A DNA stretch of 64,000 nucleotides from a virus (IMGVR_UViG_3300045988_180399), one strand, 5' to 3'. Positions 39,214-64,000 are shown, counted from the stretch's first letter. Made by a program: numbers and translations. The notes: a model not told the origin generated them from the sequence alone.

Positions 39214-39579
39214 ATGAAAGCAATGATGTTTAAGAGGGGTTTCGGTGACGAAACAAAGTGGAAAGAGGTCTGCGCGGAGCTTGGGCTGCCGGAAGATACG
39301 GAGCAGGTTGAGTTGTCCGTATCCGCAACAAAGGTCCGTACCAGCCAAAACCGCAGTTGGGAAGCGACCGACGAGGAGATGTCCCGAATTTGGGAACGCC
39401 TCGGCTCGTATTTCTTGCGCTGCGAGAGCATCTCCAGAACGAACATTCGCGTTTTCTGTGGCGGCGGAGATTCCTTTTCCGTTGTTCGCGGCACAACGCA
39501 GCCTGGATTCGTCGAGGTGGATGGACGGCTGATGGACTATGAAGACTTTGAAGCCTGGCTGTACCAGATGGCAGCTTGA
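39214..39579 (+). CDS. hypothetical protein
   Basis: 122 aa. Confidence 0.45.
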   Translation: MKAMMFKRGFGDETKWKEVCAELGLPEDTEQVELSVSATKVRTSQNRSWEATDEEMSRIWERLGSYFLRCESISRTNIRVFCGGGDSFSVVRGTTQPGFVEVDGRLMDYEDFEAWLYQMAA

Positions 39580-39592
39580 GAAAGGAGAAAAC

Positions 39593-40006
39593 ATGAACGC
39601 ACAGGAAAAAATCGACCAGCTTATGCAAGCCGAGATGGAGCATATCCGTTCCGTCGGCGGCATTTTGAATCTGCCGGAGGCCGACAGTGTTCTGAACGAC
39701 CTGAACCGAGAAAAGCTGAAGGCTCTGAAGGAACTGCACGGACATCTCTACCTCGGACGCATCAACATCCACGATACAGCCAAGCGGATTCGTATTGTGG
39801 AAGGAACCGAAGATGTGTACGAGGAAATGCTGGACCAGCCCCTATACAACTTCTGCTGTGATTTTGCCGTGCCCGTCAAGGATAAAACCTTGTCGGATTT
39901 GATTCGTGCTTGGAACGCAAGATTCGCGATTCCCGGTATGAAGGACGCGCAGAAAATCACAGAGCGTGTGGAGCAGGTTGGCGGCATAAATTTGATGTGG
40001 ACTTAA
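39593..40006 (+). CDS. hypothetical protein
   Basis: 137 aa; RBS AAAGGAGAAAAC. Confidence 0.45.
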   Translation: MNAQEKIDQLMQAEMEHIRSVGGILNLPEADSVLNDLNREKLKALKELHGHLYLGRINIHDTAKRIRIVEGTEDVYEEMLDQPLYNFCCDFAVPVKDKTLSDLIRAWNARFAIPGMKDAQKITERVEQVGGINLMWT

Positions 40007-40023
40007 AAAAGGAGAAATGAAAC

Positions 40024-41019
40024 ATGAATAATAGAATCATGCCGAAGTGGAGCGAAGTAAAGGATGTCAATGGCATCAACCTTCACCTGTTCGACGCCGT
40101 ACAGGTCATCACCTCCGGCAACAAGCGCCATAACCAGACGGGCAGAATCATGGCCCTTCTGAAGACCAAGCCTTACCTCCAGATGGTAGAGGTGCTGTTT
40201 CAGGACGAGAAGCGGTCAAATTTCCTTACGTCATCTCTTCGTCTCGTTGAAAGCTCAGAGGAAGAGAAGGGAAAGTCACTGGCAAAAATCGACTCCCTGA
40301 AGCTCATGGGAGCAGAAATCACCGACTCTGATTTCTGCGTTGACCGTTATAATAACGATGCTTTCCTATTTGACGATGAAACGCAGACGTGGAACGTCAT
40401 GCTGGAAGGCATTTCCGATGTGGACCGACTATTCGGAACCTTTTTTGAAACGGAGCAGAACGATTCCTACTGTAACATCTATGCGGATGTAGACGAATAC
40501 TGCACCAAGCTCGCAAAGCCATACCTCACGGTATCTCTGTGGCTCGGTGATGTCTGTGTAGAGGCAGTGCGCCCCTTATCAAAGGACGAGCAGGAAGCAG
40601 TGCTTCGCATCATCCGTCCTACCTACGAGAAGATGGACTACAAGAAGCTCCTGAAGGAGTGGGATGCGGAAGAGCAGAAATATGTGAACAGCATCATGCT
40701 GGAAGACGGCGATGGCTGCTACGGGTACAAATTCGCTGCCGATACCATTGAGGCCGCTAAGGCTGGCTTCCATGAGGTCATCTGGATGGCGATTGAGCTG
40801 AAGCAGTACCGTTCCGGTCAGGATTTCAGCGTCAACTCCTTTATCGAGGACGGTGACGGCAAGTATGTCGAGTCCGACAGGGAAGGCCACATCGTCATCA
40901 ATCGCGTCGTCACAACGCAGGAACCCAGCAAGTATATCAACTGGGAGATGGCTGGCACGCTGCCATTCATCTATACGGTGGACCGCGAGAAGAGCGAGTG
41001 GAAGCTCCACGCGACTTAA
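40024..41019 (+). CDS. hypothetical protein
   Basis: 331 aa; RBS AAAAAGGAGAAATGAAAC. Confidence 0.5.
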   Translation: MNNRIMPKWSEVKDVNGINLHLFDAVQVITSGNKRHNQTGRIMALLKTKPYLQMVEVLFQDEKRSNFLTSSLRLVESSEEEKGKSLAKIDSLKLMGAEITDSDFCVDRYNNDAFLFDDETQTWNVMLEGISDVDRLFGTFFETEQNDSYCNIYADVDEYCTKLAKPYLTVSLWLGDVCVEAVRPLSKDEQEAVLRIIRPTYEKMDYKKLLKEWDAEEQKYVNSIMLEDGDGCYGYKFAADTIEAAKAGFHEVIWMAIELKQYRSGQDFSVNSFIEDGDGKYVESDREGHIVINRVVTTQEPSKYINWEMAGTLPFIYTVDREKSEWKLHAT

Positions 41020-41029
41020 CAACTGAAGC

Positions 41030-41063
41030 GCCGGTGGATGAAAATATCCGCCGGCGCTTTTTC
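41030..41063 (+). terminator. rho-independent terminator
   Basis: GCGCCGG...CCGGCGC + TTTTT. Confidence 0.7.
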
Positions 41064-41089
41064 CATGTTTTGCCACAATCGAGTTCTCA

Positions 41090-41257
41090 TATTCTTAGGT
41101 TCTCAATCAGGAAATAGGTGATTTTTTCTCTTCTGCCGGTATGCTGAAATCATACAAAAGAAGTATCTCAAACACAAAGAAAGTTCAGTCAGCGTCCGTT
41201 GCGGATGCTGGCTTTTATATATAAAAATTTCATAAACAAAAAGGAGAAACGAAAAAA
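41090..41257 (+). promoter_or_regulatory. Conserved structured leader module, copy C
   Basis: Same block order as copy B; 3' 95 nt nearly identical to copy B. Confidence 0.7.
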
Positions 41258-41956
41258 ATGAAGAACAAGGCATATCTCTTACCAGCGTGCAAGACTGCTG
41301 ACGGCGTTCCCATCGGCATTGGCTCCGAGGTGTACGCAATCACCTTTAAGCAGAAAGTCAACAAATACGGTCGGCTGTATCGTCCGTCCACGAGAGAGTT
41401 GGCGGTCGTAAAAGTAACGGTGTCTACTGTGACCTTCTCCGAATTTGTGGAACCCGGTTGGTTTGGCTGGACGGGCGTTGCCTATTCGGGAATGACCGAA
41501 GTCGAATGCTCTGATGGTAAAACGAAGACGTTTTCCTACTTGCCCGGTATCGAGGTCAGCCAGTACACCATCTTCGCATCCGAGGACGCCGCAAAGGCCG
41601 CCTTGGAGAAGGCGGAGGCGGGCGGCGGTCTCTATACGAGAGCCGGATTCCCGTTGATGCCTTCTTGGCAGATTGGCGAGGTACGGGCAGCTCTGGAGAA
41701 AGCTGAGCAGAGCACTGAGGAAGAGCCTTCCATCGTTCGCAACATCCCTTATGTCTCCGTTTGGGACGGCGGAAATTGCATTGCGGCGACAAAGGCAGAC
41801 GTCTGTCTGGACACAAAGCAGGTATTCAACATTCAGACCATTGACGTTGGAGATTCTGTCAATGTTCTGAACCATGAGTACATCGTGCTGCACGGAACAG
41901 AGTATACCGTTTTCCCGAAGGGCGAAGCGAAAGACGGCGCATACTGGCGTGACTGA
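41258..41956 (+). CDS. hypothetical protein
   Basis: 232 aa. Confidence 0.5.
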   Translation: MKNKAYLLPACKTADGVPIGIGSEVYAITFKQKVNKYGRLYRPSTRELAVVKVTVSTVTFSEFVEPGWFGWTGVAYSGMTEVECSDGKTKTFSYLPGIEVSQYTIFASEDAAKAALEKAEAGGGLYTRAGFPLMPSWQIGEVRAALEKAEQSTEEEPSIVRNIPYVSVWDGGNCIAATKADVCLDTKQVFNIQTIDVGDSVNVLNHEYIVLHGTEYTVFPKGEAKDGAYWRD

Positions 41957-41980
41957 CAAAAAAGAAGGAGAATGAGAATT

Positions 41981-42646
41981 ATGACTAATATTAGTGAGAA
42001 AACCACCGGTTCCTGCAAAGACCGCGAGTATATCGTGACAGAGGTCTGCCCGCATTGCGAAGCAGAGGTTGAGATGCGATGGAATGTGGCCGCAGACGGC
42101 TACAAGGCGTTCTGCCCTCATTGCGGCAAGCGGCTGATGCTCTGTGACGCCTGCCAGCATCCGGAGGACAAGTGCGTGGAGAACTGCGATTACAACTCCG
42201 AGACCGATACCTGCCGTCACAATCAGCCTGAACAGGAGCTGAAGGCCGGCGATGTCTGTACCTATGGCTTTGGAACGGAGAATGCTTCCCGTGCCACGGT
42301 CAAAATCATCGAGCTGCTGCCTCGTTCTGAGGCTGCAACCGTGATGTTCCTGAGCGTGGAGAGGGACGATACCGGAAACGGTATGTTCAACTACCTGCTC
42401 AAAACCGGGAATACCATGAATGCCAGCCTGAAATATCTGACGAAGATTGAGTGCAGTTCCGACCAGGAACGGGATAACTACGCCGAACTGGAGAAGCTGT
42501 GTACGGAATGCGACACGGAGTTCTGTGTCTTCAATCCGCACGGCATCTGCAAGCTACCCTTCGTCACCGGAAAGGCTCCGAGACTGGGCGATGACGGCTG
42601 CCAGGACTACGCTATGAAGGATTTCATGATGAAGGAGGATTGCTGA
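41981..42646 (+). CDS. hypothetical protein with N-terminal double zinc-ribbon
   Basis: 222 aa; CPHCEAEV...CPHCGKRLMLCDACQH. Confidence 0.45.
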   Translation: MTNISEKTTGSCKDREYIVTEVCPHCEAEVEMRWNVAADGYKAFCPHCGKRLMLCDACQHPEDKCVENCDYNSETDTCRHNQPEQELKAGDVCTYGFGTENASRATVKIIELLPRSEAATVMFLSVERDDTGNGMFNYLLKTGNTMNASLKYLTKIECSSDQERDNYAELEKLCTECDTEFCVFNPHGICKLPFVTGKAPRLGDDGCQDYAMKDFMMKEDC

Positions 42647-42647
42647 A

Positions 42648-43052
42648 ATGCAGAAGACTTGTCTCAACTGTGCTCATGTGGGCGTGTGCTCCAAGCGGAT
42701 GCAGTTCATCGTGAACAACTATCTCGTCAAAAGACACTACAACGAGATTGAGAATGTCAGCAAAACGCTCGATATCTCCGTGAACTGCGACAGCTATGCA
42801 GAAAAGGATTTCTTTTCGTTCATCTGTGCGCGGGTTCGCGACTATTCCGATGGCGAAGTCTGGAGCGATGCGGACCAGATTCTGTGCAAGACAGAATCTG
42901 CCGCGAACGCGCTGTGCGACCTCCTGTGGCAGCTTTACAACGAACGGGGGGAGGCCTTTGACCTCCACACCGGCTACTACGACCCCAAGGAGGACAAGAA
43001 AAACAACGAAGAGGACCGATACACCGGCTGGTGGTATGTGTCCGCCGACTGA
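42648..43052 (+). CDS. hypothetical protein
   Basis: 134 aa; ATG overlaps upstream stop. Confidence 0.45.
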   Translation: MQKTCLNCAHVGVCSKRMQFIVNNYLVKRHYNEIENVSKTLDISVNCDSYAEKDFFSFICARVRDYSDGEVWSDADQILCKTESAANALCDLLWQLYNERGEAFDLHTGYYDPKEDKKNNEEDRYTGWWYVSAD

Positions 43053-43063
43053 AAGGAGAAAAA

Positions 43064-43267
43064 ATGAAAATTGGCAATATCCTTTGGGACACCGACGGCG
43101 ACAGGGAGGCTCTTGCCTCCCTGCCGAAGGAAGTTGAGCTGCCAAGCAGATTCGACCAGTCCCATTTTGCAAGTAGGGAAGAATGGCTCGACACGATTTC
43201 CAACTGGCTGTCCGACGAGTTTGGATTCTGTCATTTGGGGTTCGATGTCGGTGATGACGACATCTGA
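43064..43267 (+). CDS. small acidic hypothetical protein
   Basis: 67 aa; RBS AAAGGAGAAAAA. Confidence 0.4.
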   Translation: MKIGNILWDTDGDREALASLPKEVELPSRFDQSHFASREEWLDTISNWLSDEFGFCHLGFDVGDDDI

Positions 43268-43305
43268 GAATCTACGATTTTTTAACAATAAGGAGAAGTG
43301 AAAAA

Positions 43306-44223
43306 ATGGGAAAAGGTAATGTTTGTGTGAGCGGTCCGTATGAGGGCCTGTTCTATATCGACAACGACTATACCACAGTGCTTCGCCGCGAGGATGACTG
43401 TGAGGATACCATCCTCCAGAAAGACCTCAGCGCCAAGGATTTGTCCGGCAACGACTGGCTCTTCGATGACGAAGGCAGTGCGAACGAGCTGGAGGATGTG
43501 CTGGAGTGCTTTGTGGAGAACTTCACGCACAGGTATCCCAGCTTTGCGCGTGTCAAGCAGGACAAGTGGCTTGGCCGCAATGTGCGCGTCATCCTCGAAA
43601 GCAGCCTGTTTTACATCGGCATTGAGGACAGCGACTGGGCCTATGCCGTGGAACTGCTTCAGAAGGATAACCCCTGTTCGGAGGGTTTCCAGAGGAAGCA
43701 CTACAAGGCGTACCTTGACGGCATGAAAGCAGCCCTGCTGGAGCGCCTGCCAAGCATCGGCACCTACACGGGGCCGTGGACGCATGGCACCATCCGCAGG
43801 GAGCCTGTCAAGGACAACGACCTCCTCGCCGAGGCCGGCGACCGCATCGACAACGCAGTGTTCGACTTCATCTGCGCGGTTGTCACAGGCCACAGCGTAA
43901 ACGGGGAAGCGCCGAAAGAGGCTCTTCTCGCAGCTGTGAATGAGCTTTCCGTGGAACACGTCAACGCGCTTCCGGAGGGCCTCCTGTCTGACGCTACGGA
44001 CGAGGCGAAGGAAGCCGCCGGCGAACACTCCTTACAGGAGGATGCCGACGACGGGCTTCCGCTTCGCTGGGATATGGCCGCCATTGGTCCTGTGGCCGAC
44101 TATCTGGAAACCGCGCTTTCCGCACGGTTCCGCATCAATACCTGCCACCCCTGGCAGGATGATACCGAGTGCATCTGCTACGCGACAGACGAGCGCTGCC
44201 CGTACTGCACCCACAAAATTTGA
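43306..44223 (+). CDS. hypothetical protein (C-terminal Cys cluster)
   Basis: 305 aa; RBS AAGGAGAAGTGAAAAA. Confidence 0.5.
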   Translation: MGKGNVCVSGPYEGLFYIDNDYTTVLRREDDCEDTILQKDLSAKDLSGNDWLFDDEGSANELEDVLECFVENFTHRYPSFARVKQDKWLGRNVRVILESSLFYIGIEDSDWAYAVELLQKDNPCSEGFQRKHYKAYLDGMKAALLERLPSIGTYTGPWTHGTIRREPVKDNDLLAEAGDRIDNAVFDFICAVVTGHSVNGEAPKEALLAAVNELSVEHVNALPEGLLSDATDEAKEAAGEHSLQEDADDGLPLRWDMAAIGPVADYLETALSARFRINTCHPWQDDTECICYATDERCPYCTHKI

Positions 44224-44269: not shown

Positions 44270-44444
44270 TCCGGTTCTTCAGTTCTCAGGTTCCTGGAAG
44301 GTGAATGCGGCAATTTCCACTTCCGCCGGTATGCTGAGACCATACCAAAGAAGTATCACAAACAAAAAAGAAAGTTCAGTCAGCGCCCGCGTGGGTGCTG
44401 GCTTTTATATATCACATAACCATCACAAAAAAGGAGAAATGAAA
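44270..44444 (+). promoter_or_regulatory. Conserved structured leader module, copy D
   Basis: GGTTCTTCAGTTCTCAGGTTCC; hairpin-1 GGTATG..CATACC; hairpin-2 CAGCGCCCG-CGTG-GGTGCTG (compensatory changes vs copy B). Confidence 0.7.
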
Positions 44445-45191
44445 ATGGAGATTTATGTAAATTACCTCGCCATTGAGGTCACTCGTCGCTGCAACATGAA
44501 ATGCGAACACTGCCTGCGCGGAGATGCGCAAAATCTTGACATCTCAACCGCAGTTCTGTCGGGCATCGCTAAGCATATCCACCCTGCTTCCGTCATTTTC
44601 ACGGGCGGCGAGCCGTCTTTGAATGTTCCGGCCATCAAGCGGTACTTTGAGCTTGCGGAGCGTTATGACACGATGCCGGCTGCTTTCTATGTCGCCACCA
44701 ACGGAGCGACGTCGAAGGAGCAGATGCGCGACCTCGCGCTGACGCTGCTGGAATCGTATGCTAAGATGGAAGAGCAGGATATGTGCGAGGTCGATGTCTC
44801 TGTGGATATGTTCCACGAGGCGTTCCGCGACAATGACAACGCGAAAATTCTGAGCGGCTTGTCCTTCTTCGGCCAGGGTAAACAGCATTCGGTCAAGGAT
44901 GACGATTTGAATTGGCTGTTAAATACCGGACGTGCCAACAAGAACGGCATCGGCGTAAGAGCACCGGAGGTGCTCAGGACCGACATGGACGAGCTGGTAA
45001 CGGATTACTCCACAGAGTACAACAGCATTGCCTTCGATACGCTCTACATTGCCGCAAACGGTAATGTGGTAGACGGCTGTGACAGCAGTTACGAGGATAT
45101 CGACGACGAGGAGAACGTGATTTGCAAGGTCAACCAGCTTCAGAAGAAAGTGAAAGACTATGTGAAGAACGCCGATTCTCAAATCTCATAA
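44445..45191 (+). CDS. radical SAM enzyme (small, QueE/activase-like size)
   Basis: 249 aa; CNMKCEHC (CxxxCxxC) cluster motif at residues 15-22; SAM-binding glycine motif IFTGGEPSL. Confidence 0.65.
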   Translation: MEIYVNYLAIEVTRRCNMKCEHCLRGDAQNLDISTAVLSGIAKHIHPASVIFTGGEPSLNVPAIKRYFELAERYDTMPAAFYVATNGATSKEQMRDLALTLLESYAKMEEQDMCEVDVSVDMFHEAFRDNDNAKILSGLSFFGQGKQHSVKDDDLNWLLNTGRANKNGIGVRAPEVLRTDMDELVTDYSTEYNSIAFDTLYIAANGNVVDGCDSSYEDIDDEENVICKVNQLQKKVKDYVKNADSQIS

Positions 45192-45203
45192 GGAGGGCTG
45201 AAG

Positions 45204-46634: not shown

Positions 46635-46662
46635 TTTTCTTGACTTGAAAGGAGACAGAAGC

Positions 46663-47208: not shown

Positions 47209-47237
47209 GAAAAATACGGAAAAAGGAGAAATGAAAA

Positions 47238-47999: not shown

Positions 48000-48204
48000 A
48001 ATCAAGAACTTGACGTCTCTGCTGCATACCGTGGAAGCCGGCAGATACGGCAGCCTACCCGTCTATACACTGCACGGGGAGAAGGTCTGGAACAGAATCG
48101 GCGACCGCGTGGAACTGCACCTTGGCAACGGAAATAATGTTCTCTGCTCTGAGAAGGTGTTCCGGAAGGTCGAACCCTTTCTGGAGGCCATTCCCAAGTC
48201 TTAA
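47992..48204 (+). CDS. small hypothetical protein
   Basis: 70 aa, overlaps upstream stop (coupled). Confidence 0.35.
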   Translation: MYKIKNLTSLLHTVEAGRYGSLPVYTLHGEKVWNRIGDRVELHLGNGNNVLCSEKVFRKVEPFLEAIPKS

Positions 48205-48984: not shown

Positions 48985-48999
48985 GTGGGGGATAACCCT

Positions 49000-50381: not shown

Positions 50382-50382
50382 A

Positions 50383-54201: not shown

Positions 54202-54260
54202 GTGATTACGGCGGTGTGTGGAGCAATCCTACACCGCCGCCCATAAAAGGAGAACTGCTT

Positions 54261-55873: not shown

Positions 55874-55954
55874 TGCTTCTTCATTGAGAGGAGAAATGAA
55901 AAAATGAGACACATCAGCCACAGACGCTGTGCCTCCGGAAGGAGGTGACAGCCT

Positions 55955-58180
55955 TTGTGTAACGATATCAACCAGACGCTGAAGGAGGAGGTGCGCTGCA
56001 AACACTCCTTCACCATCCATTCGGCGGACGGCTTCATGGTCGTCCGCTATAAGGATGCGGATACCGGTGAGTATCTCGTCGCGTGCGGAAGCAACCTTCC
56101 GACGGCAAGCGACATCATCTACACCCTTCACGGAAAGTGGGGAATGAGCAAGAATGGGAAGTATGGACGCCAATTCGAAGTAAGCTACTTCGATATGGAG
56201 CAGCCAAAAGGTAAGGCGGCCATTGTCTCTTATTTTTGCAGCTTGAAATGCGGTATCGGGAAAGTCGTTTCCGGGCGTATCTACGCCAAATGGGGCGATG
56301 GCGTCTGGAATGTACTGGAGTCTGACCCGTCTCAACTCAAGGCTGTCAATGGCGTTACTGATAAAACAGTAACAAAGCTGATGACCAGACTGAAAGAGAC
56401 GGAGTTTCAGCGGCAAATCATTGCAAAGCTCGGCGATGCAGCGGCGGCGATTACGCCAAAGATGCTCAACGACCTGGTACGCTACTGCAACAAGAATGAG
56501 CTTGACCCGCTGGATACCGTTGAGCATCATACTTATTCCCTGATGCTGGTGCGAGGCTTCGGCTTCGAGACCGTGGATAGGCTGGCGCGTGCGCTGCCGG
56601 ATTTTGACCCCGCGAGGTCGGCACGCCTTATCGCATCCCTTGCTTATATTTTCGAGCAAAAATCTATGGAAGGCCATGTGTGCGTTCCAAAGGACGAACT
56701 GCTCGGTGAGATGACCAGGGTGCTTAATGCTGGCTTCCATAACGCGGTGTCCGAGGACAACTGCAAAGAGGCGCTGAACTTAGCGTATAAGATGAAGACC
56801 ATCAAGGTCACAGCCAACATGGTCTATTCCACCAAATCCTTTGAGGAGGAGACGGGGATTGTCAAAGATATTCGCCGCATTATGAGCGCTTCCGATTCTA
56901 AAATCACAGAAATTGATACCTTTATCGAAGAGTACGAAGATGCGAACTTCAAGCTGGCCGACAGCCAGCGAGACGCCGTACACGGTGTTTTTGAGCATCA
57001 GGTCGAAATCATCACCGGCGGACCCGGCACAGGCAAAACAACAGTCACAAAGGCTGTTCTCTATGTCCATCAGCAAGTGTTCGGTGGAGATTCCAATGCT
57101 GTGCTTCTGGCTCCGACGGGAAGAGCCGCAAGAAGAATGTCTGAGGCGACCGGCTTTCCGGCACAGACCATTCATTCTGCTATCGGTTACACCGGAGTAC
57201 CGGAGCTGGACAACCGCAACGAGGGCTTCCTGGAAGGGAACTTGTTTATTATTGACGAGTCCTCCATGATGGACCAGTTCATCGCTGCGAAACTTCTGTC
57301 CATGATTCCTGATGGAGCAAAGGTCGTCTTTGTCGGCGACCCTGACCAGCTGCCATCTGTCGGTGCTGGTAATGTGCTTCGTGAAATGATTCGCAGCAAG
57401 GCTGTTCCAACAACCAGACTGAGCGTCATTTTCCGTCAGGCACAGGATAACCCCATTGTTGGGAATAGCCTGAAAATCAACCAGGGCTGCACAAACCTCA
57501 CTTTTACTAACACATTCTGTTTCATTGAGCGGTCTGCACCGGAAGAAATTCTCCGCACCGCCTGCGCGTTCTATGTGAAAGCGGTGAAGAAATTTGGTCT
57601 GGAGAATGTGATTCTGCTGAATCCGTTCCGGAACAAGGGCCTGCTCTCCGTCAACGAGTTCAACCGCCAGCTCCAGAATCTTATCAATCCGCCCATAGAA
57701 GGGGAGGAGAGCATCAAGATTCGAAAGCTGGAGTTTCGTCCGCGTGATTTGGTCATGCAGACGAAAAACACGGAAATCGCTATGAACGGCGATATCGGCG
57801 TTATCCATGAAATCAGCAAAATGCCGGACCCGGACGATATGAACAGATGGACTTACATCGCGTCTATCGAATTCAACGGGGACGGCAAACGCCATGACTA
57901 TACGCCTGAGATGATGCAGGACCTTGACCTTGCTTACTGCACAACCGTGCATAAAAGCCAAGGCTCAGAGTACCAAACCGTCATCATGGTGGTATCCGAG
58001 GAACACAAAGTTATGCTCAAGCGCAATATCATCTATACGGGCGTGACGAGAGCCAAGCAGAACGTCGCGTTGATTGGTCAGACAGAGGCGCTCAACACCG
58101 CCATACTGAACAACCAGACAGATGTTCGGCACACCCTTTTGGGCGACCGGCTTCACGCTGCGTTCACGGTGAAAAGTTGA
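55955..58180 (+). CDS. RecD2-like SF1B DNA helicase (AAA_30 + UvrD_C-like) with N-terminal accessory domain
   Basis: 741 aa (TTG start after GGAGGT); Walker A GGPGTGKTT, LAPTGRAARR, Walker B FIIDESSM, VGDPDQLPSV, C-terminal YCTTVHKSQGSEY and IYTGVTRAK motifs. Confidence 0.75.
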   Translation: MCNDINQTLKEEVRCKHSFTIHSADGFMVVRYKDADTGEYLVACGSNLPTASDIIYTLHGKWGMSKNGKYGRQFEVSYFDMEQPKGKAAIVSYFCSLKCGIGKVVSGRIYAKWGDGVWNVLESDPSQLKAVNGVTDKTVTKLMTRLKETEFQRQIIAKLGDAAAAITPKMLNDLVRYCNKNELDPLDTVEHHTYSLMLVRGFGFETVDRLARALPDFDPARSARLIASLAYIFEQKSMEGHVCVPKDELLGEMTRVLNAGFHNAVSEDNCKEALNLAYKMKTIKVTANMVYSTKSFEEETGIVKDIRRIMSASDSKITEIDTFIEEYEDANFKLADSQRDAVHGVFEHQVEIITGGPGTGKTTVTKAVLYVHQQVFGGDSNAVLLAPTGRAARRMSEATGFPAQTIHSAIGYTGVPELDNRNEGFLEGNLFIIDESSMMDQFIAAKLLSMIPDGAKVVFVGDPDQLPSVGAGNVLREMIRSKAVPTTRLSVIFRQAQDNPIVGNSLKINQGCTNLTFTNTFCFIERSAPEEILRTACAFYVKAVKKFGLENVILLNPFRNKGLLSVNEFNRQLQNLINPPIEGEESIKIRKLEFRPRDLVMQTKNTEIAMNGDIGVIHEISKMPDPDDMNRWTYIASIEFNGDGKRHDYTPEMMQDLDLAYCTTVHKSQGSEYQTVIMVVSEEHKVMLKRNIIYTGVTRAKQNVALIGQTEALNTAILNNQTDVRHTLLGDRLHAAFTVKS

Positions 58181-58264: not shown

Positions 58265-58293
58265 TTGACTAATAGGTGTATATGTGGGATAAT
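58265..58293 (+). promoter_or_regulatory. sigma-A type promoter TTGACT-N17-TGTGGGATAAT
   Basis: -35 58265-58270, -10 58288-58293. Confidence 0.6.
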
Positions 58294-58336
58294 ATATAGA
58301 GCGGAACCCCAAAAATTTTGAAAGGAGAAATTTTGC

Positions 58337-60757
58337 ATGAATAGGAAAAACCGTGTGTGTTCCGCCGCACTCTCGGCAGTTCTGACGCTTACGCTGGTCA
58401 CAGCACCGGCACAAGCTCTCGGCACTGCTGGGGCGGAGAGGACAGAAGGAGACTATGCCGTAATGCAGGCCGTGTCCGGCCCCAGTATCGGCGAAATCGA
58501 CAGCAGCGGCATCATCTACAACGGAAAAGCACAGACGCCGACGCCAAAAATCACAGTGGGCGGCATGGAACTGGTTGCTGGTACTGACTTCCGGATGGAA
58601 TACAGCAACAATGTTCACGCCGGCACGGGAATTGCGTACATTCTCGGAATGGGGAAGTATGCAGGGTATGTTGACAGCTGTGAGTTCACCATTCACCCCG
58701 CTCAGTTAGTCGTGAAGGTGGACGATGTGCAGGATGTCAAGGACCCGGCCTCCTACACCTACACGATTCTTCAGGGAACACTTGCTTCCGGAGATTCGCT
58801 TGGACAGCCGCAGTATTCCGTGAAGGATAACGGGAACCGCACCAAGACGGTCAGCGCGACCTTCCAGGACAACGCCGATTACGAAATCACGGTTCTGCCC
58901 GGTACTCTGACGATTGTCCAAACGCTCGGCACCGTCGTTATCAGCGGCCCGTCCAATGTCTTCTACAACGGCAGTGCTCAGACGCCGAAGCCCACCGTTC
59001 AGGACGCTTCCACCGGAAAGACGCTGACAGAGGGACGGGACTACAATCTCGTTTACCGCAACAACGTCAATGCTGGCAAGGCCAGCGTCACCATCAACGG
59101 AATCGGCAGCTACAGCAAGGTCAGCGAGGTGCGTGAGTTCACCATCCAGGCAGCTCCCATCACGGTGCGCATCCGCGACGTGCGTTGCAGCATCCGAGAT
59201 ACCGACCCGACCTTCCGCTATGACATCACCAGCGGCAGCCTCGCCCCCGGCGACAGCCTCGGTTCGCCTCGTTATTCCGTCTATTCCAAGACGGGCTACT
59301 CTTATGGCCCGTACTTTGGCATCCGTGCGGAATTCCCCGTGAACCCGAATTATGCTATTACGGTTCGTGAAGGAACAATGACCTACTATGATGTCAAGGT
59401 CGATGATGACGTCATTAGCACGGACTTCCGCGTGGTTGTCAATGATGTCTACTATAACGGCACCTACCAGGAGCCGACGGTAAAGGTCTATGACCGCTAT
59501 AACAACCGTCTGACGGAAGGCGAGGACTACACTCTGAGCTTCTCCAACAACAGACAGGTTGGCACGGCAACCGTCTTTGTTACCGGCATCAATAGTTACC
59601 GAGGCTCGTATGCCACGGAGCATTTCGAAATTCTTTCCAATCACTCCAAACCGACGAATGACCGGTATACCATCGACGCTTCCGCTTCCGATGGCGGCCG
59701 CATTTCTCCGTCTGGCACGAATACCGTGCGGGATGGTGCGGATAAGACTTTCAACTTCTATGCGAACAGTGGCTATGAGATTATCGGCGTCTATGTCGAT
59801 AACGAGTATGTCGGAACCAAGAGCAGCTACACCTTCCGCGATGTCAGCGAGGACCACGAGATTTACGTTGAGTTCGCAAAGCGTAATTCCTCTAACTCCA
59901 GATATGACATCACCATTCGCTCCAGCTATGGCGGTACGGTAACGCCCAATGACAGCGGCAGTGTCACCGTTGCCAGAGGAAATAGCCGCACGTTCTACTT
60001 TGAACCCGATGCAGGCTATCGGATTTCTGCCGTTTATGTGGACGGTTCTCTGGTTTCCACCCGCAACAATCAGTACACCTTCACCAACGTCAGAGATGAC
60101 CACCGCCTCGACGTGGAGTTCACCAGAATCAACGGGTACTGGGACAATGCCGGCAACTGGTATCCCGGTGGACCGAACCATGACTGGACTCCGGGCTGGA
60201 AGAATCCGTACTATGACGTGAGCAACTCTGCATGGTACTACAATGAGCTGTGCTACATGACTTCTCGCGGCATCGTCAACGGTGTGTCCAATGACGTATT
60301 CTCCCCGAACACGCCCGTTTCTCGCGGTGAGCTGGTTCTGCTCCTGTACCGTATCTGCGGAAGCCCAAATCCCGGACGTCACACCTACTTCAACGATGTC
60401 GCTGCTTCCTCTCCCTTTGCTCATGCAATCTACTGGGCTGCGGAGAACGGCATTGTCACCGGCTACGGTGATAACTCCTTTAAGCCGTATGCCGCCGTTA
60501 CTCGTGAGCAGGCAGCCGCTATCCTGTACCGCTACGCTACCTACCGTGGCTTCGCTTACTATCAGGAGACTGGCGTGCTGAACGCTTACGCTGATTTCTA
60601 CGCGGTTTCTTCTTACGCCGTTCGCCCGCTGAGCTGGGCAGCGACCAATGGCATTGTCGTGGGGCAGTCGAACCAAACGCTTGGTCCGCAGTACCACATG
60701 ACGAGAGCTGAAACCATTGTCATGCTCTATCGCTTCTGCACCATGTTCGGCCAGTGA
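58337..60757 (+). CDS. large cell-surface protein: signal peptide, repeated ~90-aa beta-rich domains, Listeria-Bacteroides-type repeats, three C-terminal SLH domains
   Basis: 806 aa; signal peptide ...APAQALG; internal repeats (FYNGSAQTPKPTV...); repeats RYTIDASASDGG.../RYDITIRSSYGG...; three SLH motifs (..FSPNTPVSRGELVLLLYR / FNDVAASSPFAHAIYWAAENGIVTGYGDNSFKPYAAVTREQAAAILYRY / ..MTRAETIVMLYRF). Confidence 0.7.
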   Translation: MNRKNRVCSAALSAVLTLTLVTAPAQALGTAGAERTEGDYAVMQAVSGPSIGEIDSSGIIYNGKAQTPTPKITVGGMELVAGTDFRMEYSNNVHAGTGIAYILGMGKYAGYVDSCEFTIHPAQLVVKVDDVQDVKDPASYTYTILQGTLASGDSLGQPQYSVKDNGNRTKTVSATFQDNADYEITVLPGTLTIVQTLGTVVISGPSNVFYNGSAQTPKPTVQDASTGKTLTEGRDYNLVYRNNVNAGKASVTINGIGSYSKVSEVREFTIQAAPITVRIRDVRCSIRDTDPTFRYDITSGSLAPGDSLGSPRYSVYSKTGYSYGPYFGIRAEFPVNPNYAITVREGTMTYYDVKVDDDVISTDFRVVVNDVYYNGTYQEPTVKVYDRYNNRLTEGEDYTLSFSNNRQVGTATVFVTGINSYRGSYATEHFEILSNHSKPTNDRYTIDASASDGGRISPSGTNTVRDGADKTFNFYANSGYEIIGVYVDNEYVGTKSSYTFRDVSEDHEIYVEFAKRNSSNSRYDITIRSSYGGTVTPNDSGSVTVARGNSRTFYFEPDAGYRISAVYVDGSLVSTRNNQYTFTNVRDDHRLDVEFTRINGYWDNAGNWYPGGPNHDWTPGWKNPYYDVSNSAWYYNELCYMTSRGIVNGVSNDVFSPNTPVSRGELVLLLYRICGSPNPGRHTYFNDVAASSPFAHAIYWAAENGIVTGYGDNSFKPYAAVTREQAAAILYRYATYRGFAYYQETGVLNAYADFYAVSSYAVRPLSWAATNGIVVGQSNQTLGPQYHMTRAETIVMLYRFCTMFGQ

Positions 60758-60761: not shown

Positions 60762-60982
60762 CTGGGGTTCTTGAGTTCTCAGGTTCCGAACAGACAGGTT
60801 TTGAAAATTGAAAATCGTAGGGTATGATGGCGTTACATTAAAGAAGTATCTCTCATGAAATTGACTTGATACTTCGCTGGGACAAGCGCATTCGGAACTG
60901 TCCGCAGGGAAGAATCGCTTGTCCCATTTTTTTAATGTGCAAGCTACAACCACAAAAATTATTTCGAAAAGGAGAAAAAATC
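60762..60982 (+). promoter_or_regulatory. Divergent copy G of leader module (5' half conserved; 3' half replaced by TTGACT box and long hairpin+T7)
   Basis: GGTTCTTGAGTTCTCAGGTTCC ... GTAGGGTATGATGGCGTTACATTAAAGAAGTATC; then GAAGTATC..TTGACT..GATACTTC inverted repeat; GGGACAAGCG...CGCTTGTCCC+T7 at 60879-60934; RBS AAAAGGAGAAAAAATC ATG. Confidence 0.55.
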
Positions 60983-61633
60983 ATGTCTGAGTACACCAAC
61001 AACCTGAACGTCGTCTCCACCTACAAGGGCGAAAAGAGCGTCAGCATCACCGGCACGTTCCAGTGCGGCATTCACTTCCCCAAGAGTGGGGCAAAGCCGT
61101 TCAAGGTCATCGAGCGCACATCCAAGAACAACAAGCAGTACAAGCAGATTGCCTGTACTGTTGTTATCTCCCCGGATGACCGCAAGAACAACAACGGCAA
61201 TCCTTTCTCTTCTGTCTATTACGATGGGAAGTACCTGACCTTCAAGGAGTTCCTGGAAACCACCGGCGTCGAGCTTATCAAGGGCAAGCTGTATGCCGGC
61301 GTGTTCATGGACCGCAGCACGATGGGCCTGTATCAGGTCATGGGCGACCCCAATTTGACCTTCAAGCAGAACATCGTTCTCTCCGGCGAACTGTCCGTCT
61401 ATACGGATAAGGAAGGGAAGAAGCGTGCCGCTTTCGGCCGCGTGTCCCTGTTTGCCAAGGACCATGTGGGAGCCGATAAGGTGGAAAAAGAGAACGCAAA
61501 CGTCATGCTGGAGAGCGGCGGCAACGCGCAGGCGTCCGGCGGTAGTCCTGCCGCATACGCTTCCGCAGCGCCCGCTATGAACGATGACGGCTTTATCGAC
61601 ATCTCTGATGATGACGGTGAGCTGCCGTTCTGA
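60983..61633 (+). CDS. single-stranded DNA-binding protein-like (OB-fold) with SSB-type acidic C-terminal tail
   Basis: 216 aa; G/S/A-rich linker and C-terminus ...ISDDDGELPF resembling SSB DDDIPF protein-interaction tail. Confidence 0.5.
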   Translation: MSEYTNNLNVVSTYKGEKSVSITGTFQCGIHFPKSGAKPFKVIERTSKNNKQYKQIACTVVISPDDRKNNNGNPFSSVYYDGKYLTFKEFLETTGVELIKGKLYAGVFMDRSTMGLYQVMGDPNLTFKQNIVLSGELSVYTDKEGKKRAAFGRVSLFAKDHVGADKVEKENANVMLESGGNAQASGGSPAAYASAAPAMNDDGFIDISDDDGELPF

Positions 61634-61651
61634 TTCGGCACATACAATGCA

Positions 61652-61686
61652 AGGAGACACCGATTTCTCGGTGTCTCCTTTGTTGT
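61652..61686 (+). terminator. rho-independent terminator
   Basis: AGGAGACACCG-ATTTCT-CGGTGTCTCCT + TTGTTG. Confidence 0.65.
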
Positions 61687-61710
61687 AAAAACTTTTTAGG
61701 GAGATGCAAC

Positions 61711-62256
61711 ATGAAGGAGAAAGAACCCAAAATTGCCTCATTTCGGAATGCTACGACCATCTATATGGGCCATGCAAACGGACAGGACGGGGAGTGGGAC
61801 CTGTTTTACAGCGTACATTTCGAGGACCGTTCCGCCGAAAGAAAATGCTCCGTTGAGAAAGCTGGAATTATCCTTGGCACCATTTTCGAAGACGCCATCT
61901 TCGCCGATAAGGTCTCCGAGGATATCGTGCTGTCCCGTGCTTCTCGCCGCCAGTCTTACGACTATGTTGAGAAGCGGCAGCGTTTTCAGATTCTGGACAT
62001 GGTGAACAAGGTTTCTTTCATCCTGGAATTGTATCCGAGAACGAAGGAAATCTACGCCATCACAGTCCTCACACAGGACAGAGAGGCCATCAATAAAAAA
62101 AGAAATACCGTTGTCATAAAGATTCTTCCGGCTGTTGAGCGGGAGGATGTCGTGGAATCAAAAGTTGTCTATTATGATTACGACTTGCGCATCCGGGCAT
62201 TCAAGAAACTGTACGAGCAGGTTATGGATGCGTCCTGCCTGCCTTGCGAAGATTGA
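61711..62256 (+). CDS. hypothetical protein
   Basis: 181 aa; RBS AGGGAGATG. Confidence 0.45.
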   Translation: MKEKEPKIASFRNATTIYMGHANGQDGEWDLFYSVHFEDRSAERKCSVEKAGIILGTIFEDAIFADKVSEDIVLSRASRRQSYDYVEKRQRFQILDMVNKVSFILELYPRTKEIYAITVLTQDREAINKKRNTVVIKILPAVEREDVVESKVVYYDYDLRIRAFKKLYEQVMDASCLPCED

Positions 62257-62295
62257 GTTGCCACAGCAGAAAGAATCACACAACACGACACATCA

Positions 62296-62325
62296 ACAGG
62301 GCAGCATAGCTGCCCTGTTTTTTTG
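62296..62325 (+). terminator. rho-independent terminator (between convergent genes)
   Basis: ACAGGGCAGC-ATA-GCTGCCCTGT + T8. Confidence 0.75.
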
Positions 62326-62343
62326 CGTATTGATGAAAAAAGA

Positions 62344-62661
62344 TTATTCGAACAACTCCCCCTCCTCGTCAGCGAGTGTCTTTAGATACTTGAACACCGT
62401 CTCAAACGAATCAGGCGAGTGGTCATACTCTGTAATATGGTTGAGCGCAAAGTAAGGTTCAACCATATTCACAACCATGAAGATGGGTAGGTGGTTGTCC
62501 TGTGCGAGTTTCACAATGCGTTCTCGGCGCTCAGGCAGTAAAAAGATATCGTCGATGAACCCGCACAGGGCGTAGAACTCGTTGTCATCAGGTGTGAGGG
62601 GAGCAACTGGCAGATTGGCAGCCTCCGGTATATCGTGGCCGGAAAAAAACTTCTTGTTCAT
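62344..62661 (-). CDS. hypothetical protein (only minus-strand gene in the array)
   Basis: 105 aa; acidic C-terminus; convergent with 61711..62256. Confidence 0.45.
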   Translation of the reverse strand: MNKKFFSGHDIPEAANLPVAPLTPDDNEFYALCGFIDDIFLLPERRERIVKLAQDNHLPIFMVVNMVEPYFALNHITEYDHSPDSFETVFKYLKTLADEEGELFE

Positions 62662-62857
62662 AAAAACCTCCGCAAAAAAGAAATATGGTGAATGGACACA
62701 GTTTCACAAAGAACTGTCCATCCACCATATTATTGAAGGGGAGAAATGAAAAAAATGATGCAAACGTGTTATCCATCGTTGCAAGCATATTATACCAAAT
62801 TTGCATTAAAAAGTCAATCCAATTTTGAGGATTCCCAGAAAACCATTCCAATTCGCA

Positions 62858-63029
62858 AGAATTCTTGGGTTCTTGGGTTCCTTGTGCAAAAATGGGCCAT
62901 TCCTCATATTTGTCGGTATGCTAAGAACATACCAAGGAAGTATCACAAACAAAAAGAAAGTTCAGTCAGCGGTTATAGACCATTGGCTTTTATATAAATA
63001 AACAGCTATTGTAAAGGAGAAATGAAAAA
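62858..63029 (+). promoter_or_regulatory. Conserved structured leader module, copy H
   Basis: TTCTTGGGTTCTTGGGTTCC; hairpin-1 GGTATG-CTAAGAA-CATACC; AAGTATCACAAACAAAAAGAAAGTTCAGTCAGCG; GGCTTTTATATAAATA; AAAGGAGAAATGAAAAA ATG. Confidence 0.65.
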
Positions 63030-63413
63030 ATGAAACTGACAACAGAAGAAAAGGCAAAGTTGAAATCCAATATTGAGAAAATCAAGGCATACATCGAAGC
63101 CGAAATCAGCCCGAAGCTCTGTGGTGAAGCGATTACTGTCTATTTTGGCAATGTGGTACACTTTGCCAACGGCACCACCGGGAAGAAGTATCGTCTCTAT
63201 GTAGACGGACGCAGTGTTTGCGGAGGTGCAGGGAATCTGCTCATGAACCTGCTGCCAACCGGCACGCAGAAATTCGACTGTTCTGACTTCTGCACTCGTT
63301 CGGATGCTGGCCTTGAGCTGATTCATTCGTGGCCTGCTATCAAGCAGGAACTACTCCAAAAGGTGCAGAATGTTGCGGAGCGCAAAAGCAGCCTTGATAA
63401 TTTTGAACTTTGA
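63030..63413 (+). CDS. hypothetical protein
   Basis: 127 aa. Confidence 0.45.
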   Translation: MKLTTEEKAKLKSNIEKIKAYIEAEISPKLCGEAITVYFGNVVHFANGTTGKKYRLYVDGRSVCGGAGNLLMNLLPTGTQKFDCSDFCTRSDAGLELIHSWPAIKQELLQKVQNVAERKSSLDNFEL

Positions 63414-63428
63414 AAGAGAGGATAAGCA

Positions 63429-64000
63429 ATGTTGAGCAATGTGAAACTGACTGCGGCCAATGTCCCACACAAGGAAAGCCTGACCACGGAAGAGAAGGCA
63501 ACTCTTTGGAAGAACATTTCTTCAGCCCTTATTGAGACTGGTCGTCCAGGCATCAAGCGACTCCTGAACTGGATGCAGTCGGACTGTGGAAACGGCGTGA
63601 TGAACTATGTCAATGCGCCCGCATCTACGAAGTACCACGGGAACTATCCTGGCGGTTTGATGGAGCATTCCTGGAATGTTTATGTATGGCTGACTATCAT
63701 CGTAGGCAACGCCAACTCTATGAAGGACGCCGACGCGCAACTTCAAACTGAGGAAAGCAATGCCATGATGACGTCTGTTGCCATCGTCGCGCTTCTCCAT
63801 GACATCTGCAAGGTCGGGTTCTATTCGATGGAGCCGAAGAACCGGAAGACGTATGACGCGGAGAAGGTGAAAAACGCTCTCCAGAAGGACGTGAAGCACG
63901 ACAGCCTCGGAGACTTCATCTGGGAGACTGTCATGAGCTACACTGTGACCGATACACACAAGTTCGGCCACGGAGAGTCCTCCGTTGCCATTATCGAGAA
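63429..64000 (+). CDS. HD-domain phosphohydrolase-like protein (3' partial, continues beyond window)
   Basis: 190+ aa; His...HD pattern (KYHGNYPGGLMEHSWNV ... ALLHDICK). Confidence 0.45.
   Translation, partial: MLSNVKLTAANVPHKESLTTEEKATLWKNISSALIETGRPGIKRLLNWMQSDCGNGVMNYVNAPASTKYHGNYPGGLMEHSWNVYVWLTIIVGNANSMKDADAQLQTEESNAMMTSVAIVALLHDICKVGFYSMEPKNRKTYDAEKVKNALQKDVKHDSLGDFIWETVMSYTVTDTHKFGHGESSVAIIE

What the first reader, a model, noticed from the sequence alone, without database searches (positions are those of the whole stretch)
39214..64000. Cargo of the array resembles a leading-region establishment or anti-defence island
Genes behind the leader modules include an SSB-like protein with a ...DDDGELPF tail (60983..61633) and a lambda-Exo/YqaJ-type exonuclease (54506..55873). 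An ERF-like annealase sits behind the wrapped copy at 1067..1861. Other members are a RecD2-like helicase (55955..58180), a very acidic 181-aa protein that could be a DNA mimic (48439..48984), a radical SAM enzyme (44445..45191), an HD hydrolase (63429..) and many small zinc-ribbon proteins. SSB, recombination functions and acidic anti-restriction proteins are what conjugative plasmids express first in the recipient. The large number of unknown ORFs (more than 25) makes this a good place to look for new anti-restriction, anti-CRISPR or anti-defence proteins.
Basis: inference. Interest (0 to 1): 0.72.

Follow-up and report, generated by a model that had tools for sequence, protein, structure and literature searches.

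The report
Co-regulated accessory gene array of a gut conjugative element
The region is the accessory end of a very large, very common integrative conjugative element of gut Oscillospiraceae: mostly unknown genes sit in operons that share one repeated leader, which looks like the "establishment regulons" of Bacillus plasmids, but neither an anti-defence role nor first entry into the recipient could be shown.

Summary
Confirmed are the YqaJ/RecE-like exonuclease, RecD2-like helicase, radical SAM enzyme, ERF annealase, HD hydrolase, several zinc-ribbon proteins and a very acidic 181-aa protein. The "SSB" has no sequence-level match, but its model is an OB fold closest to bacterial SSBs, followed by a disordered tail with an invariant acidic tip.

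The window is not circular and not a plasmid. It is a slice of an integrated conjugative element (ICE) of at least about 147 kb. It carries a type IV secretion system, and a large serine recombinase lies about 6.8 kb past the window end.

The roughly 175-nt leader module occurs at least 18 times, on both sides of the secretion genes. It has no sigma-A consensus promoter and always carries a covarying hairpin plus U-run before the ribosome-binding site.

This matches the pLS20/p576 establishment-regulon layout better than a single leading region. Module-led operons outside the window include an orphan C5 methyltransferase and a DpnD/PcfM-like protein.

No known anti-restriction, anti-CRISPR or defence family was detected. 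No relaxase or oriT was found. The acidic protein has no convincing DNA-mimic fold. The cargo is not more acidic than the backbone.

Verdict: partly supported; a new variant of a known kind.

The parts
1..112 (+). Leader module copy cut by the window start. The full copy is seen in the relative, L014 9806-9998.
   Evidence: nhmmer E 2.9e-24; alignment.
119..3416 (+). Operon behind that copy: a 315-aa unknown protein, the ERF annealase (1073-1861), and a primase-like protein with a CHC2 zinc finger and a DUF3854/Toprim domain (1932-3416).
   Evidence: Pfam; NCBIfam weak dnaG match.
3639..23384 (+). Type IV secretion block: TrbC/VirB2-like pilins, an 881-aa membrane protein, the CHAP plus lysozyme hydrolase 8772-10097, the VirD4 coupling protein 10112-12382, signal peptidase I, an S1-domain protein, PrgI-like 14546-15418, VirB4-like 15418-17910, and a NERD protein.
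37817..38938 (+). SigA-like sigma factor with its own extended -10 sigma-A promoter (37766) and terminator, directly upstream of the first 3' module.
   Evidence: Pfam regions 2 and 4; phmmer E 2.5e-50 to C. difficile SigA, with the -10 and -35 contact residues conserved.
39042..39215 (+). Leader module 1.
   Evidence: nhmmer E 2e-53.
39214..41019 (+). Operon 1: three unknown proteins (121, 137 and 331 aa).
   Evidence: No family hits.
41081..41256 (+). Leader module 2.
41258..44223 (+). Operon 2: five proteins, several Cys-rich. 41981-42646 has 18 Cys and a weak YnfU-like zinc ribbon.
44273..44446 (+). Leader module 3.
44445..48204 (+). Operon 3: radical SAM enzyme 44445-45191, a 476-aa protein of phage family phrog_12834 (45204-46634), and three unknowns.
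   Evidence: weak pVip and MoaA-type matches limited to the radical SAM core.
48269..48440 (+). Leader module 4.
48439..48984 (+). Acidic 181-aa protein. A conserved N-terminal domain (residues 1-105) is followed by a variable helical C-terminal part.
   Evidence: pI 4.05; 141 homologues; alignment; model pLDDT 86; fold searches.
48985..52777 (+). Rest of operon 4: eight proteins. They include members of phrog_38679 (48985-49230) and phrog_5051 (49467-50381), and a zinc-ribbon protein at 52190-52555.
52831..53006 (+). Leader module 5.
53005..58180 (+). Operon 5: a 398-aa unknown protein, an 82-aa zinc-ribbon protein, the YqaJ/RecE-like exonuclease 54506-55873, and the RecD2-like helicase 55955-58180.
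58265..60757 (+). Sigma-A promoter (58265-58305) and an 806-aa surface protein with SLH, InlB B-repeat and MBG domains.
60768..60982 (+). Degenerate module copy. It keeps the GGTTCT repeats and the GTATC core and has a different hairpin plus T-run.
60983..62256 (+). Divergent SSB-like protein (60983-61633) and a 181-aa unknown protein.
62344..62661 (-). The only convergent gene (105 aa, acidic), with its own extended -10 sigma-A promoter at 62818-62790.
   Evidence: (repeat I1).
62861..63031 (+). Leader module 7.
63030..64000 (+). A 127-aa unknown protein and the HD hydrolase (63429 onwards, cut by the window end; 300 aa in relatives).

Best explanation
Window 39-64 kb is the right-hand accessory arm of an integrative conjugative element of gut Oscillospiraceae that is at least about 147 kb long.

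The genes form a regulon. Each operon starts with the same module of about 175 nt. The module contains GGTTCY direct repeats, an invariant GGTATGCT...CATAC-AAGGAAGTATCAC core, a covarying hairpin plus U-run, and a strong ribosome-binding site. Each operon ends in its own terminator.

The modules lack a host sigma-A consensus promoter and carry a built-in terminator. The operons should therefore be silent unless an element-encoded factor acts on them. I infer that the regulon is switched on as a block around transfer.

The annotated products form a phage-like toolkit for single-stranded DNA and recombination: a divergent SSB, a RecE/lambda-Exo-type exonuclease, a RecD2-type helicase, and behind another module copy an ERF annealase and a primase. 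There are also nucleotide- or DNA-modifying enzymes: a radical SAM enzyme and an HD hydrolase here, and a C5 methyltransferase elsewhere in the element. About 25 small proteins have no known function.

The likely role (inferred) is to protect, convert and repair the incoming strand and to blunt host defences.

Shown here: the gene identities, the conjugative and integrative nature of the element, the module architecture and its copy number, and gene-level turnover between close relatives.

Inferred, not shown: the timing of expression, the regulator, and any anti-defence activity.
For: - Conjugation genes are present.
- The element is integrated. The serine recombinase lies about 6.1-7.6 kb downstream of window position 63030. 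Related contigs diverge into different chromosomal genes 129 bp after its stop codon.
- A 98-99.6% identical copy lies in a 570-kb contig of an Oscillospiraceae genome. Modules there span about 237-372 kb of the contig.
- In the 17 full-length copies of the 19 aligned, an 8-12 bp hairpin with compensatory changes is followed by CUUUUAUAUA about 30 nt before the ribosome-binding site.
- The modules contain no sigma-A-type promoter, whereas the backbone has six near-identical TTGAC-N17-TGTGGTATAAT promoters.
- Cargo identities are established.
- Module-led operons outside the window contain a C5 DNA methyltransferase, a DpnD/PcfM-like protein, HU, an R2K ATP-grasp protein and an NT5C-like protein.
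- A stand-alone homologue of the acidic protein's N-domain sits next to DpnD-PcfM, LPD29, a DUF4942 methyltransferase and toxin-antitoxin genes in another integrative element.
- Backbones that are 94-99.9% identical differ by whole-gene insertions or deletions placed exactly at gene or module junctions.
- Published precedent exists: conserved regulatory sequences head 4-5 variable operons of mostly unknown establishment genes in pLS20/p576. The EGeRS1 type lacks a constitutive sigma-A promoter and blocks read-through (PMC8708921; PMC6294495).
- SSB, methyltransferases and recombination functions are enriched in leading regions (PMC11541004).
Against: - No known anti-restriction, anti-CRISPR or SOS-inhibitor family was detected in the 32 ORFs.
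- No relaxase or oriT was found, so the order of entry is unknown.
- The modules flank the secretion genes on both sides, so the array cannot all be "leading".
- The same toolkit (SSB, helicases, primase) could serve replication of the excised element in the donor.
- A surface protein and one convergent gene, each with a sigma-A promoter, interrupt the array.
- The cargo is not more acidic than the backbone (median pI 5.13 against 5.33, p = 0.24).
- The element's sigma factor keeps SigA-like DNA-contact residues. It is therefore more likely to serve the element's sigma-A-type promoters than the modules.
Confidence: 0.5

Rival explanations
1. Donor-side replication and recombination regulon. 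After excision the element replicates autonomously. SSB, the RecD2 and UvrD helicases, the primase, Exo and ERF serve that replication and recombination in the donor, and the unknown genes are general accessory cargo. There is no special role in the recipient.
For: The element carries UvrD (30974-32842), UDG, a RecD2-like helicase, a primase-like protein and SSB. The modules occur all over the element and not only next to one end. From established knowledge: ICEBs1 replicates by rolling circle after excision, using a host UvrD-type helicase, an element-encoded helper and SSB.
Against: This does not explain about 25 small, fast-turning-over unknown genes under the same leader. It also does not explain the orphan methyltransferase and the DpnD/PcfM-like genes behind modules. 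No replication initiator or relaxase was identified in the array.
Confidence: 0.25
2. Defence cargo. The array carries anti-phage systems that benefit the host, such as helicase-nuclease pairs or a viperin-like radical SAM enzyme, as many ICEs do.
For: PADLOC gives RecD-like and GajB-like hits for the two SF1 helicases and a weak pVip hit for the radical SAM protein (24 bits, N-terminal core only).
Against: The helicase hits are generic SF1 similarity, and no partner genes are present (no GajA, no type IV CRISPR genes). None of the unknown ORFs matches any of the 5027 PADLOC models at E <= 1e-5. The exonuclease is a RecE/lambda-Exo recombination type and occurs together with ERF and SSB.
Confidence: 0.08
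3. Early region of a prophage or phage-plasmid, with repeated early promoters as in phage host-takeover modules.
For: All genes share one orientation. The recombination genes are phage-like, and three unknown proteins fall in PHROG families. A tRNA array lies nearby. A homologue of the acidic domain is the first gene after a cro-like gene in a prophage.
Against: No capsid, portal, terminase or tail genes were detected in the 64-kb window among the scanned proteins. A full type IV secretion set is present instead. Megablast finds no phage match.
Confidence: 0.04

Closest known systems
Establishment regulons of the pLS20/p576 family of Bacillus conjugative plasmids (EGeRS1 and EGeRS2 regulatory sequences; Val-Calvo et al. 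2018, 2021; PMC6294495, PMC8708921)
   Same: In both, a conserved non-coding sequence is repeated immediately upstream of the ribosome-binding site of several operons. The operons are variable between close relatives and consist mostly of genes of unknown function. EGeRS1 has no constitutive sigma-A promoter and stops read-through. EGeRS2 has direct-repeat operators (TTATCCCnnTTATCCC), which compare with GGTTCTnnGGTTCTnAGGTTCC here.
   Different: The host is a different class (Clostridia, Oscillospiraceae). The element is an ICE of at least 147 kb, not a plasmid. There are at least 18 copies rather than 4-5, spread on both sides of the transfer genes. The module is about 175 nt and built differently, with a single covarying hairpin plus U-run, whereas EGeRS1 is 420-750 bp with many hairpins. 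No ardC is present. No Reg576-like repressor was identified. Sequence similarity to the EGeRS sequences was not tested.
Leading-region anti-defence islands of conjugative plasmids (Samuel et al. 2024, PMC11541004)
   Same: Both lie on a conjugative element with co-oriented genes and contain an SSB. An orphan methyltransferase occurs behind a module elsewhere in this element. Both contain many small unknown genes and show gene-level mosaicism.
   Different: There is no oriT anchor and no known anti-restriction, anti-CRISPR or PsiB gene. There is no Frpo-like single-strand promoter fold (z = -0.57). The array is not confined to one side of the transfer genes.
Bet/Exo/SSB recombination module of SXT/R391 ICEs and IncC plasmids (own knowledge; cited as reference 41 in PMC11541004 for repair of CRISPR-induced breaks during conjugation)
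   Same: Both are conjugative elements that encode a lambda-Exo-type exonuclease, a single-strand annealing protein and an SSB.
   Different: The annealase here is ERF-type and sits about 50 kb from the exonuclease, in another module-led operon. The SSB is highly divergent. A RecD2-like helicase is co-transcribed with the exonuclease.
Phage host-takeover or early gene clusters, such as the SPO1 terminal-redundancy operons (own knowledge)
   Same: Both have many short operons of small unknown proteins, each with the same type of strong regulatory signal.
   Different: This element has a secretion system and no virion genes.

Membership tests
Leading-region anti-defence island | Lies on a conjugative element | tested here: met
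   VirD4, VirB4-like, PrgI, a cell-wall hydrolase and pilin-like genes are present.
Leading-region anti-defence island | Adjacent to oriT on the side that enters the recipient first | tested here: inconclusive
   No relaxase was detected by Pfam or NCBIfam in the window or in the sampled flanks. The HD protein is not a MOBH relaxase. The related plasmid pMM35_02 is typed non-mobilizable.
Leading-region anti-defence island | Enriched in known anti-defence genes (Ard, Klc, Acr, Psi, orphan methyltransferases) | tested here: not met
   None was found among the 32 ORFs of window 39-64 kb. One orphan C5 methyltransferase and a DpnD/PcfM-like protein sit behind modules outside the window. No dedicated anti-defence HMM library was available.
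Leading-region anti-defence island | Frpo/ssi-type single-strand promoters upstream of the genes | tested here: not met
   The template-strand DNA fold of a module gives -14.9 kcal/mol, z = -0.57 against shuffles.
Establishment regulon (pLS20/p576 type) | Conserved regulatory sequence directly upstream of the ribosome-binding site of several operons | tested here: met
   There are 7 full or degenerate copies plus 1 cut copy in the window, and at least 18 in the element, with nhmmer E from 1e-20 to 1e-53.
Establishment regulon (pLS20/p576 type) | No constitutive sigma-A promoter, and a block to read-through (EGeRS1 behaviour) | tested here: met
   This was tested in silico only. No sigma-A consensus lies in the modules, and the module hairpins rank among the best terminator-like sites.
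Establishment regulon (pLS20/p576 type) | Contains an anti-restriction gene (ardC) or a methyltransferase | tested here: inconclusive
   No ArdC was found. A C5 methyltransferase sits behind a module in the relative's left arm, and none lies inside the window.
Establishment regulon (pLS20/p576 type) | Transient expression in the recipient after transfer | not testable with these tools
   This needs expression data.
Bacterial SSB | OB-fold DNA-binding core | tested here: met
Bacterial SSB | Disordered linker plus conserved acidic C-terminal tip | tested here: met
   Residues 170-216 have pLDDT below 50, and the D-x-D-x-E-L-P-F tip is invariant.
Bacterial SSB | Sequence membership (Pfam SSB) | tested here: not met
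   No Pfam, PHROG, NCBIfam or PDB sequence hit.
DNA-mimic anti-restriction or anti-CRISPR proteins (Ocr, ArdA, AcrIIA4) | Strong net negative charge | tested here: met
   Net charge -35, pI 4.05.
DNA-mimic anti-restriction or anti-CRISPR proteins (Ocr, ArdA, AcrIIA4) | Fold related to a known mimic | tested here: inconclusive
MOBH relaxase (candidate: the HD protein at 63429 onwards) | TraI_2 domain with the alternative HHH motif plus the HD motif, usually with TraI_2_C | tested here: not met
   Only the HD-motif stretch aligns: TraI_2 18.7 bits against 23.9, MobH 24.9 against 200. The sequence has YHG where HHH is expected. The listed homologues are mostly HD-only proteins of 205-275 aa.
Lambda-Exo/YqaJ exonuclease | YqaJ domain above the curated cutoff | tested here: met
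   66.2 bits against a cutoff of 22.

The most novel reading that the evidence does not exclude
A very common human-gut ICE runs a regulon of about 100 genes through a previously undescribed promoter-leader module with a built-in conditional terminator, present in at least 18 copies. In this reading the regulon is switched on at transfer by an element-encoded factor. Many of the small ORFans behind the modules would then be new inhibitors of restriction, CRISPR or other defences in Clostridia. That includes the family of the acidic protein's N-domain, which also occurs in polyvalent-protein neighbourhoods.
Probability: 0.3. Interest if true: 0.75.

Novelty: new variant of a known kind. Interest (0 to 1): 0.55.

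Why it matters
The element is extremely common in metagenome assemblies. One of its proteins is indexed in 6559 blocks of the assembly collection. It belongs to a gut lineage whose conjugation biology is almost unstudied, and even its relaxase is not recognised by current typing.

If the module-led operons are an establishment regulon, they offer a ready-made, co-regulated catalogue of dozens of candidate counter-defence and single-strand-DNA-handling proteins for Clostridia. The shared leader would be a simple sequence tag for finding more of them in metagenomes.

Tried and rejected
- **Phage origin.** Megablast of 54-62 kb against phages gave no match, and megablast of 39-64 kb against plasmids gave none either. 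No virion genes were detected.
- **Circular window or "wrapped" copy.** Rejected from the flanks in related contigs.
- **Frpo-like single-strand promoter.** The module's DNA fold is not better than shuffles.
- **Known RNA family for the leader.** No Rfam match; the only hits are two sub-threshold, terminator-like ones.
- **HD protein as MOBH relaxase.** Rejected.
- **The gene-poor stretch beyond the window end as oriT.** It is an array of 8 tRNA genes.
- **The 34.2-34.7 kb gap as oriT.** It holds a small ORF and, by eye (no search was run), a type-I-toxin-like peptide with a sigma-A promoter. No convincing oriT features were seen.
- **The 743-aa and 462-aa backbone proteins as relaxase.** Plasmid homologues are annotated only as "hypothetical", or there are none.
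- **The 398-aa protein at 53005 as DUF932.** No similarity to the DUF932 protein of the related plasmid.
- **Sigma factor as driver of the modules.** Weakened, because its -10 and -35 contact residues match SigA while the modules lack that consensus.
- **The same repeat architecture in the distantly related Vescimonas plasmid.** Absent.
- **Acid bias of the cargo.** Not significant.
- **Integron-like cassette array.** Considered and judged unlikely. The units are multi-gene operons with their own terminators. The module is fixed at the ribosome-binding site and is not an attC-like imperfect palindrome.

Full report
**What the window is**

All credible genes but one lie on the + strand and have Firmicutes-type ribosome-binding sites. 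GC content is about 52%. The sequence is not a phage: megablast finds no match in the phage or plasmid collections.

Pfam finds a type IV secretion set in 3.6-23 kb:
- VirD4-type coupling protein, 10112-12382, E 1.7e-49
- VirB4/TraG-type ATPase, 15418-17910
- PrgI-like protein, 14546-15418
- CHAP plus phage-lysozyme hydrolase, 8772-10097
- TrbC-like pilins

The nearest coupling proteins in plasmids come from Oscillospiraceae and clostridia, at about 33-36% identity.

An exact-pattern scan with the module core found a single genome, Oscillospiraceae bacterium CM18GR_63. Its 570,756-bp contig carries a 98-99.6% identical, inverted copy of the window at about 236-307 kb.

Walking out from the last and first complete genes of the window gave the flanks:
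- Downstream come the complete HD gene (300 aa) and a 66-aa gene.
- Next is an 8-tRNA array with its own sigma-A promoter, then three small genes.
- Last is a 500-aa large serine recombinase.
- Related contigs diverge 129 bp after its stop codon, into the spoIIIA operon in two contigs and into RNase H/recJ in two others.

The element is therefore integrative and uses different insertion sites. Its right end lies about 6.8 kb beyond the window end. If the module-bearing DNA up to contig position 376 kb is one element, which is inferred, the element is at least about 147 kb.

**The observation**

Six of the eight calls are clear family matches: YqaJ/RecE-like exonuclease, RecD2-like helicase, radical SAM, ERF, HD hydrolase and zinc ribbons.

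The acidic protein is real (pI 4.05, net charge -35).

The "wrapped copy" is simply a module cut by the window edge.

**The array**

A profile built from six copies finds the module at 39042, 41081, 44273, 48269, 52831 and 62861, and truncated at 1-112. A degenerate copy lies at 60768. The same profile finds at least 10 more copies in the other sampled pieces of the relative's contig, up to 65 kb upstream of the window start. All have the same orientation.

The array therefore flanks the secretion genes on both sides. It is a regulon, not one contiguous island.

Alignment of 19 copies shows four parts:
- two or three GGTTCY direct repeats with an 8-nt period;
- a nearly invariant core, GCCGGTATGCTGAGACCATACAAAGGAAGTATCACAAAC;
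- a hairpin of 8-12 bp whose sequence differs between copies but stays paired (-9.6 to -22 kcal/mol), followed by CTTTTATATA;
- AAAGGAGA and the start codon about 30 nt further on.

Most operons also end in a separate strong terminator just before the next module.

No sigma-A consensus promoter lies in the modules. In contrast, six near-identical TTGAC-N17-TGTGGTATAAT promoters in the window serve backbone genes, the sigma gene and the SLH protein, and a similar promoter precedes the tRNA array just beyond the window end. The module matches no Rfam family. As single-stranded DNA it folds no better than shuffled sequence (z = -0.57), so it is not an Frpo-type promoter.

**The regulator is not identified**

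A SigA-like sigma factor (E 2.5e-50 to C. difficile SigA) is encoded right before the first 3' module. Its region 2.4 and 4.2 contact residues are those of SigA. It therefore fits the element's sigma-A-type promoters better than the modules.

A small protein resembling sigma region 4 (36326-36724) is another candidate.

A promoter-plus-attenuator reading and a nut/put-like antitermination reading both remain open.

**The cargo**

Of the 32 ORFs in 39-64 kb, about 23 have no family match in Pfam, PHROGs, NCBIfam or PADLOC, and about 26 have no functional annotation.

No Ard, Klc, Psi or Acr family appears. PADLOC gives only generic SF1-helicase similarity and a 24-bit pVip match to the radical SAM core.

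The annotated genes form a phage-like recombination and replication kit: RecE-like exonuclease, RecD2-like helicase and SSB here; ERF and a primase-like protein behind the copy at position 1.

Module-led operons outside the window add an orphan C5 DNA methyltransferase, a DpnD/PcfM-like protein, HU, an R2K ATP-grasp protein and an NT5C-like protein.

The acidic protein has a conserved N-terminal domain of about 105 residues. This domain also occurs as a stand-alone protein of about 113 aa and fused to DpnD/PcfM.
- One stand-alone copy sits between DpnD-PcfM, LPD29, DUF6290 and a DUF4942 methyltransferase in another integrative element.
- Another is the first gene after a cro-like gene in a prophage.

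The cargo as a whole is not more acidic than the backbone.

Close relatives with 94-99.9% identical backbones differ by whole genes inserted exactly at gene or module junctions. Examples are a 184-aa gene before the exonuclease, a 140-aa gene between module 62861 and its first gene, and a replaced segment at 52.1-52.6 kb.

**Leading or not**

No relaxase was found in the window or in any sampled flank.

The HD protein gave sub-threshold MobH and TraI_2 hits. These cover only the HD motif, the HHH motif is missing, and its many homologues are mostly short HD-only hydrolases.

A distantly related Vescimonas plasmid shares the VirD4-S1 protein synteny and has a sigma factor, SSB, DUF932 and an N6 methyltransferase downstream. 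MOB-suite types it "non-mobilizable". This suggests the relaxase of this lineage is not yet recognised. That plasmid lacks the repeated module.

**Comparison with what is known**

The layout is closest to the establishment regulons of pLS20/p576. There, conserved EGeRS sequences head 4-5 variable operons of mostly unknown genes. EGeRS1 lacks a constitutive sigma-A promoter and blocks read-through. EGeRS2 has direct-repeat operators for a repressor, giving transient expression in the recipient (PMC8708921, PMC6294495).

It also shares SSB, an orphan methyltransferase and gene co-orientation with leading-region anti-defence islands (PMC11541004). It fails the oriT, known-gene and Frpo tests for membership in that class.

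It differs from both in host, element type, module structure, copy number and distribution.

**Verdict**

I rate it a new variant of a known kind, of moderate interest, mainly as a well-delimited source of candidate genes in a very common gut element.

Noticed in passing
L010 11680-13772 (about 1.7-3.8 kb beyond the window end): The element carries an array of 8 tRNA genes (Gln, Thr x2, Asn, Leu, Trp, Met, Gly) and several tRNA-fragment repeats. A strong extended -10 sigma-A promoter precedes it. It lies between the HD operon and the serine recombinase.
   Followed up: partly
window 62344-62661 (- strand), promoter at 62818-62790: This is the only convergent gene in the array. It encodes a 105-aa acidic protein and has its own TTGACT-N17-TGGTATAAT promoter, a leader hairpin and a terminator.
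   Followed up: partly
window 58265-60757: An 806-aa surface protein with three SLH domains and InlB B-repeat and MBG domains sits in the middle of the array under its own sigma-A promoter. It may be an adhesin or an exclusion function.
   Followed up: no
window 37766-38938 and 36326-36724: The element encodes a full-length SigA paralogue with conserved -10 and -35 contact residues, and also a small protein resembling sigma region 4. Six promoters in the window share the motif TTGAC-N17-TGTGGTATAAT.
   Followed up: partly
window 34361-34560: A sigma-A promoter is followed by a 28-aa hydrophobic peptide (MVTYESLFAYSLVIIGLVGLIVQICKRK). By eye it resembles type I toxins or holin-like toxins; no search was run.
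   Followed up: no
window 12525-13046, 3639-4649: A signal peptidase I gene and two TrbC/VirB2-like pilin genes lie inside a Firmicutes-type secretion gene set. An S1-domain protein follows the coupling-protein region (here after the signal peptidase gene) and directly follows VirD4 in the distant Vescimonas plasmid.
   Followed up: partly
window 21645-32842: The backbone carries a NERD-domain membrane protein, a YwbE-family protein, an SPFH/flotillin protein, a uracil-DNA glycosylase-family protein and a UvrD helicase. Several of these have their own sigma-A promoters.
   Followed up: no
L014 3708-4814 and 5807-9766 (upstream of the window start): An anthrax-lethal-factor-like (ATLF) protein with a faint SLH match lies here. 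A 583-aa plus VWA-domain 713-aa gene pair follows behind a further module copy.
   Followed up: no
window 62746-62997: This 83-aa basic ORF overlaps module 62861 and was not called in related contigs. It is probably not a gene.
   Followed up: partly
window 119-1066: The 315-aa unknown protein ahead of ERF is indexed in 6559 blocks of the assembly collection, which shows how widespread this element family is.
   Followed up: no
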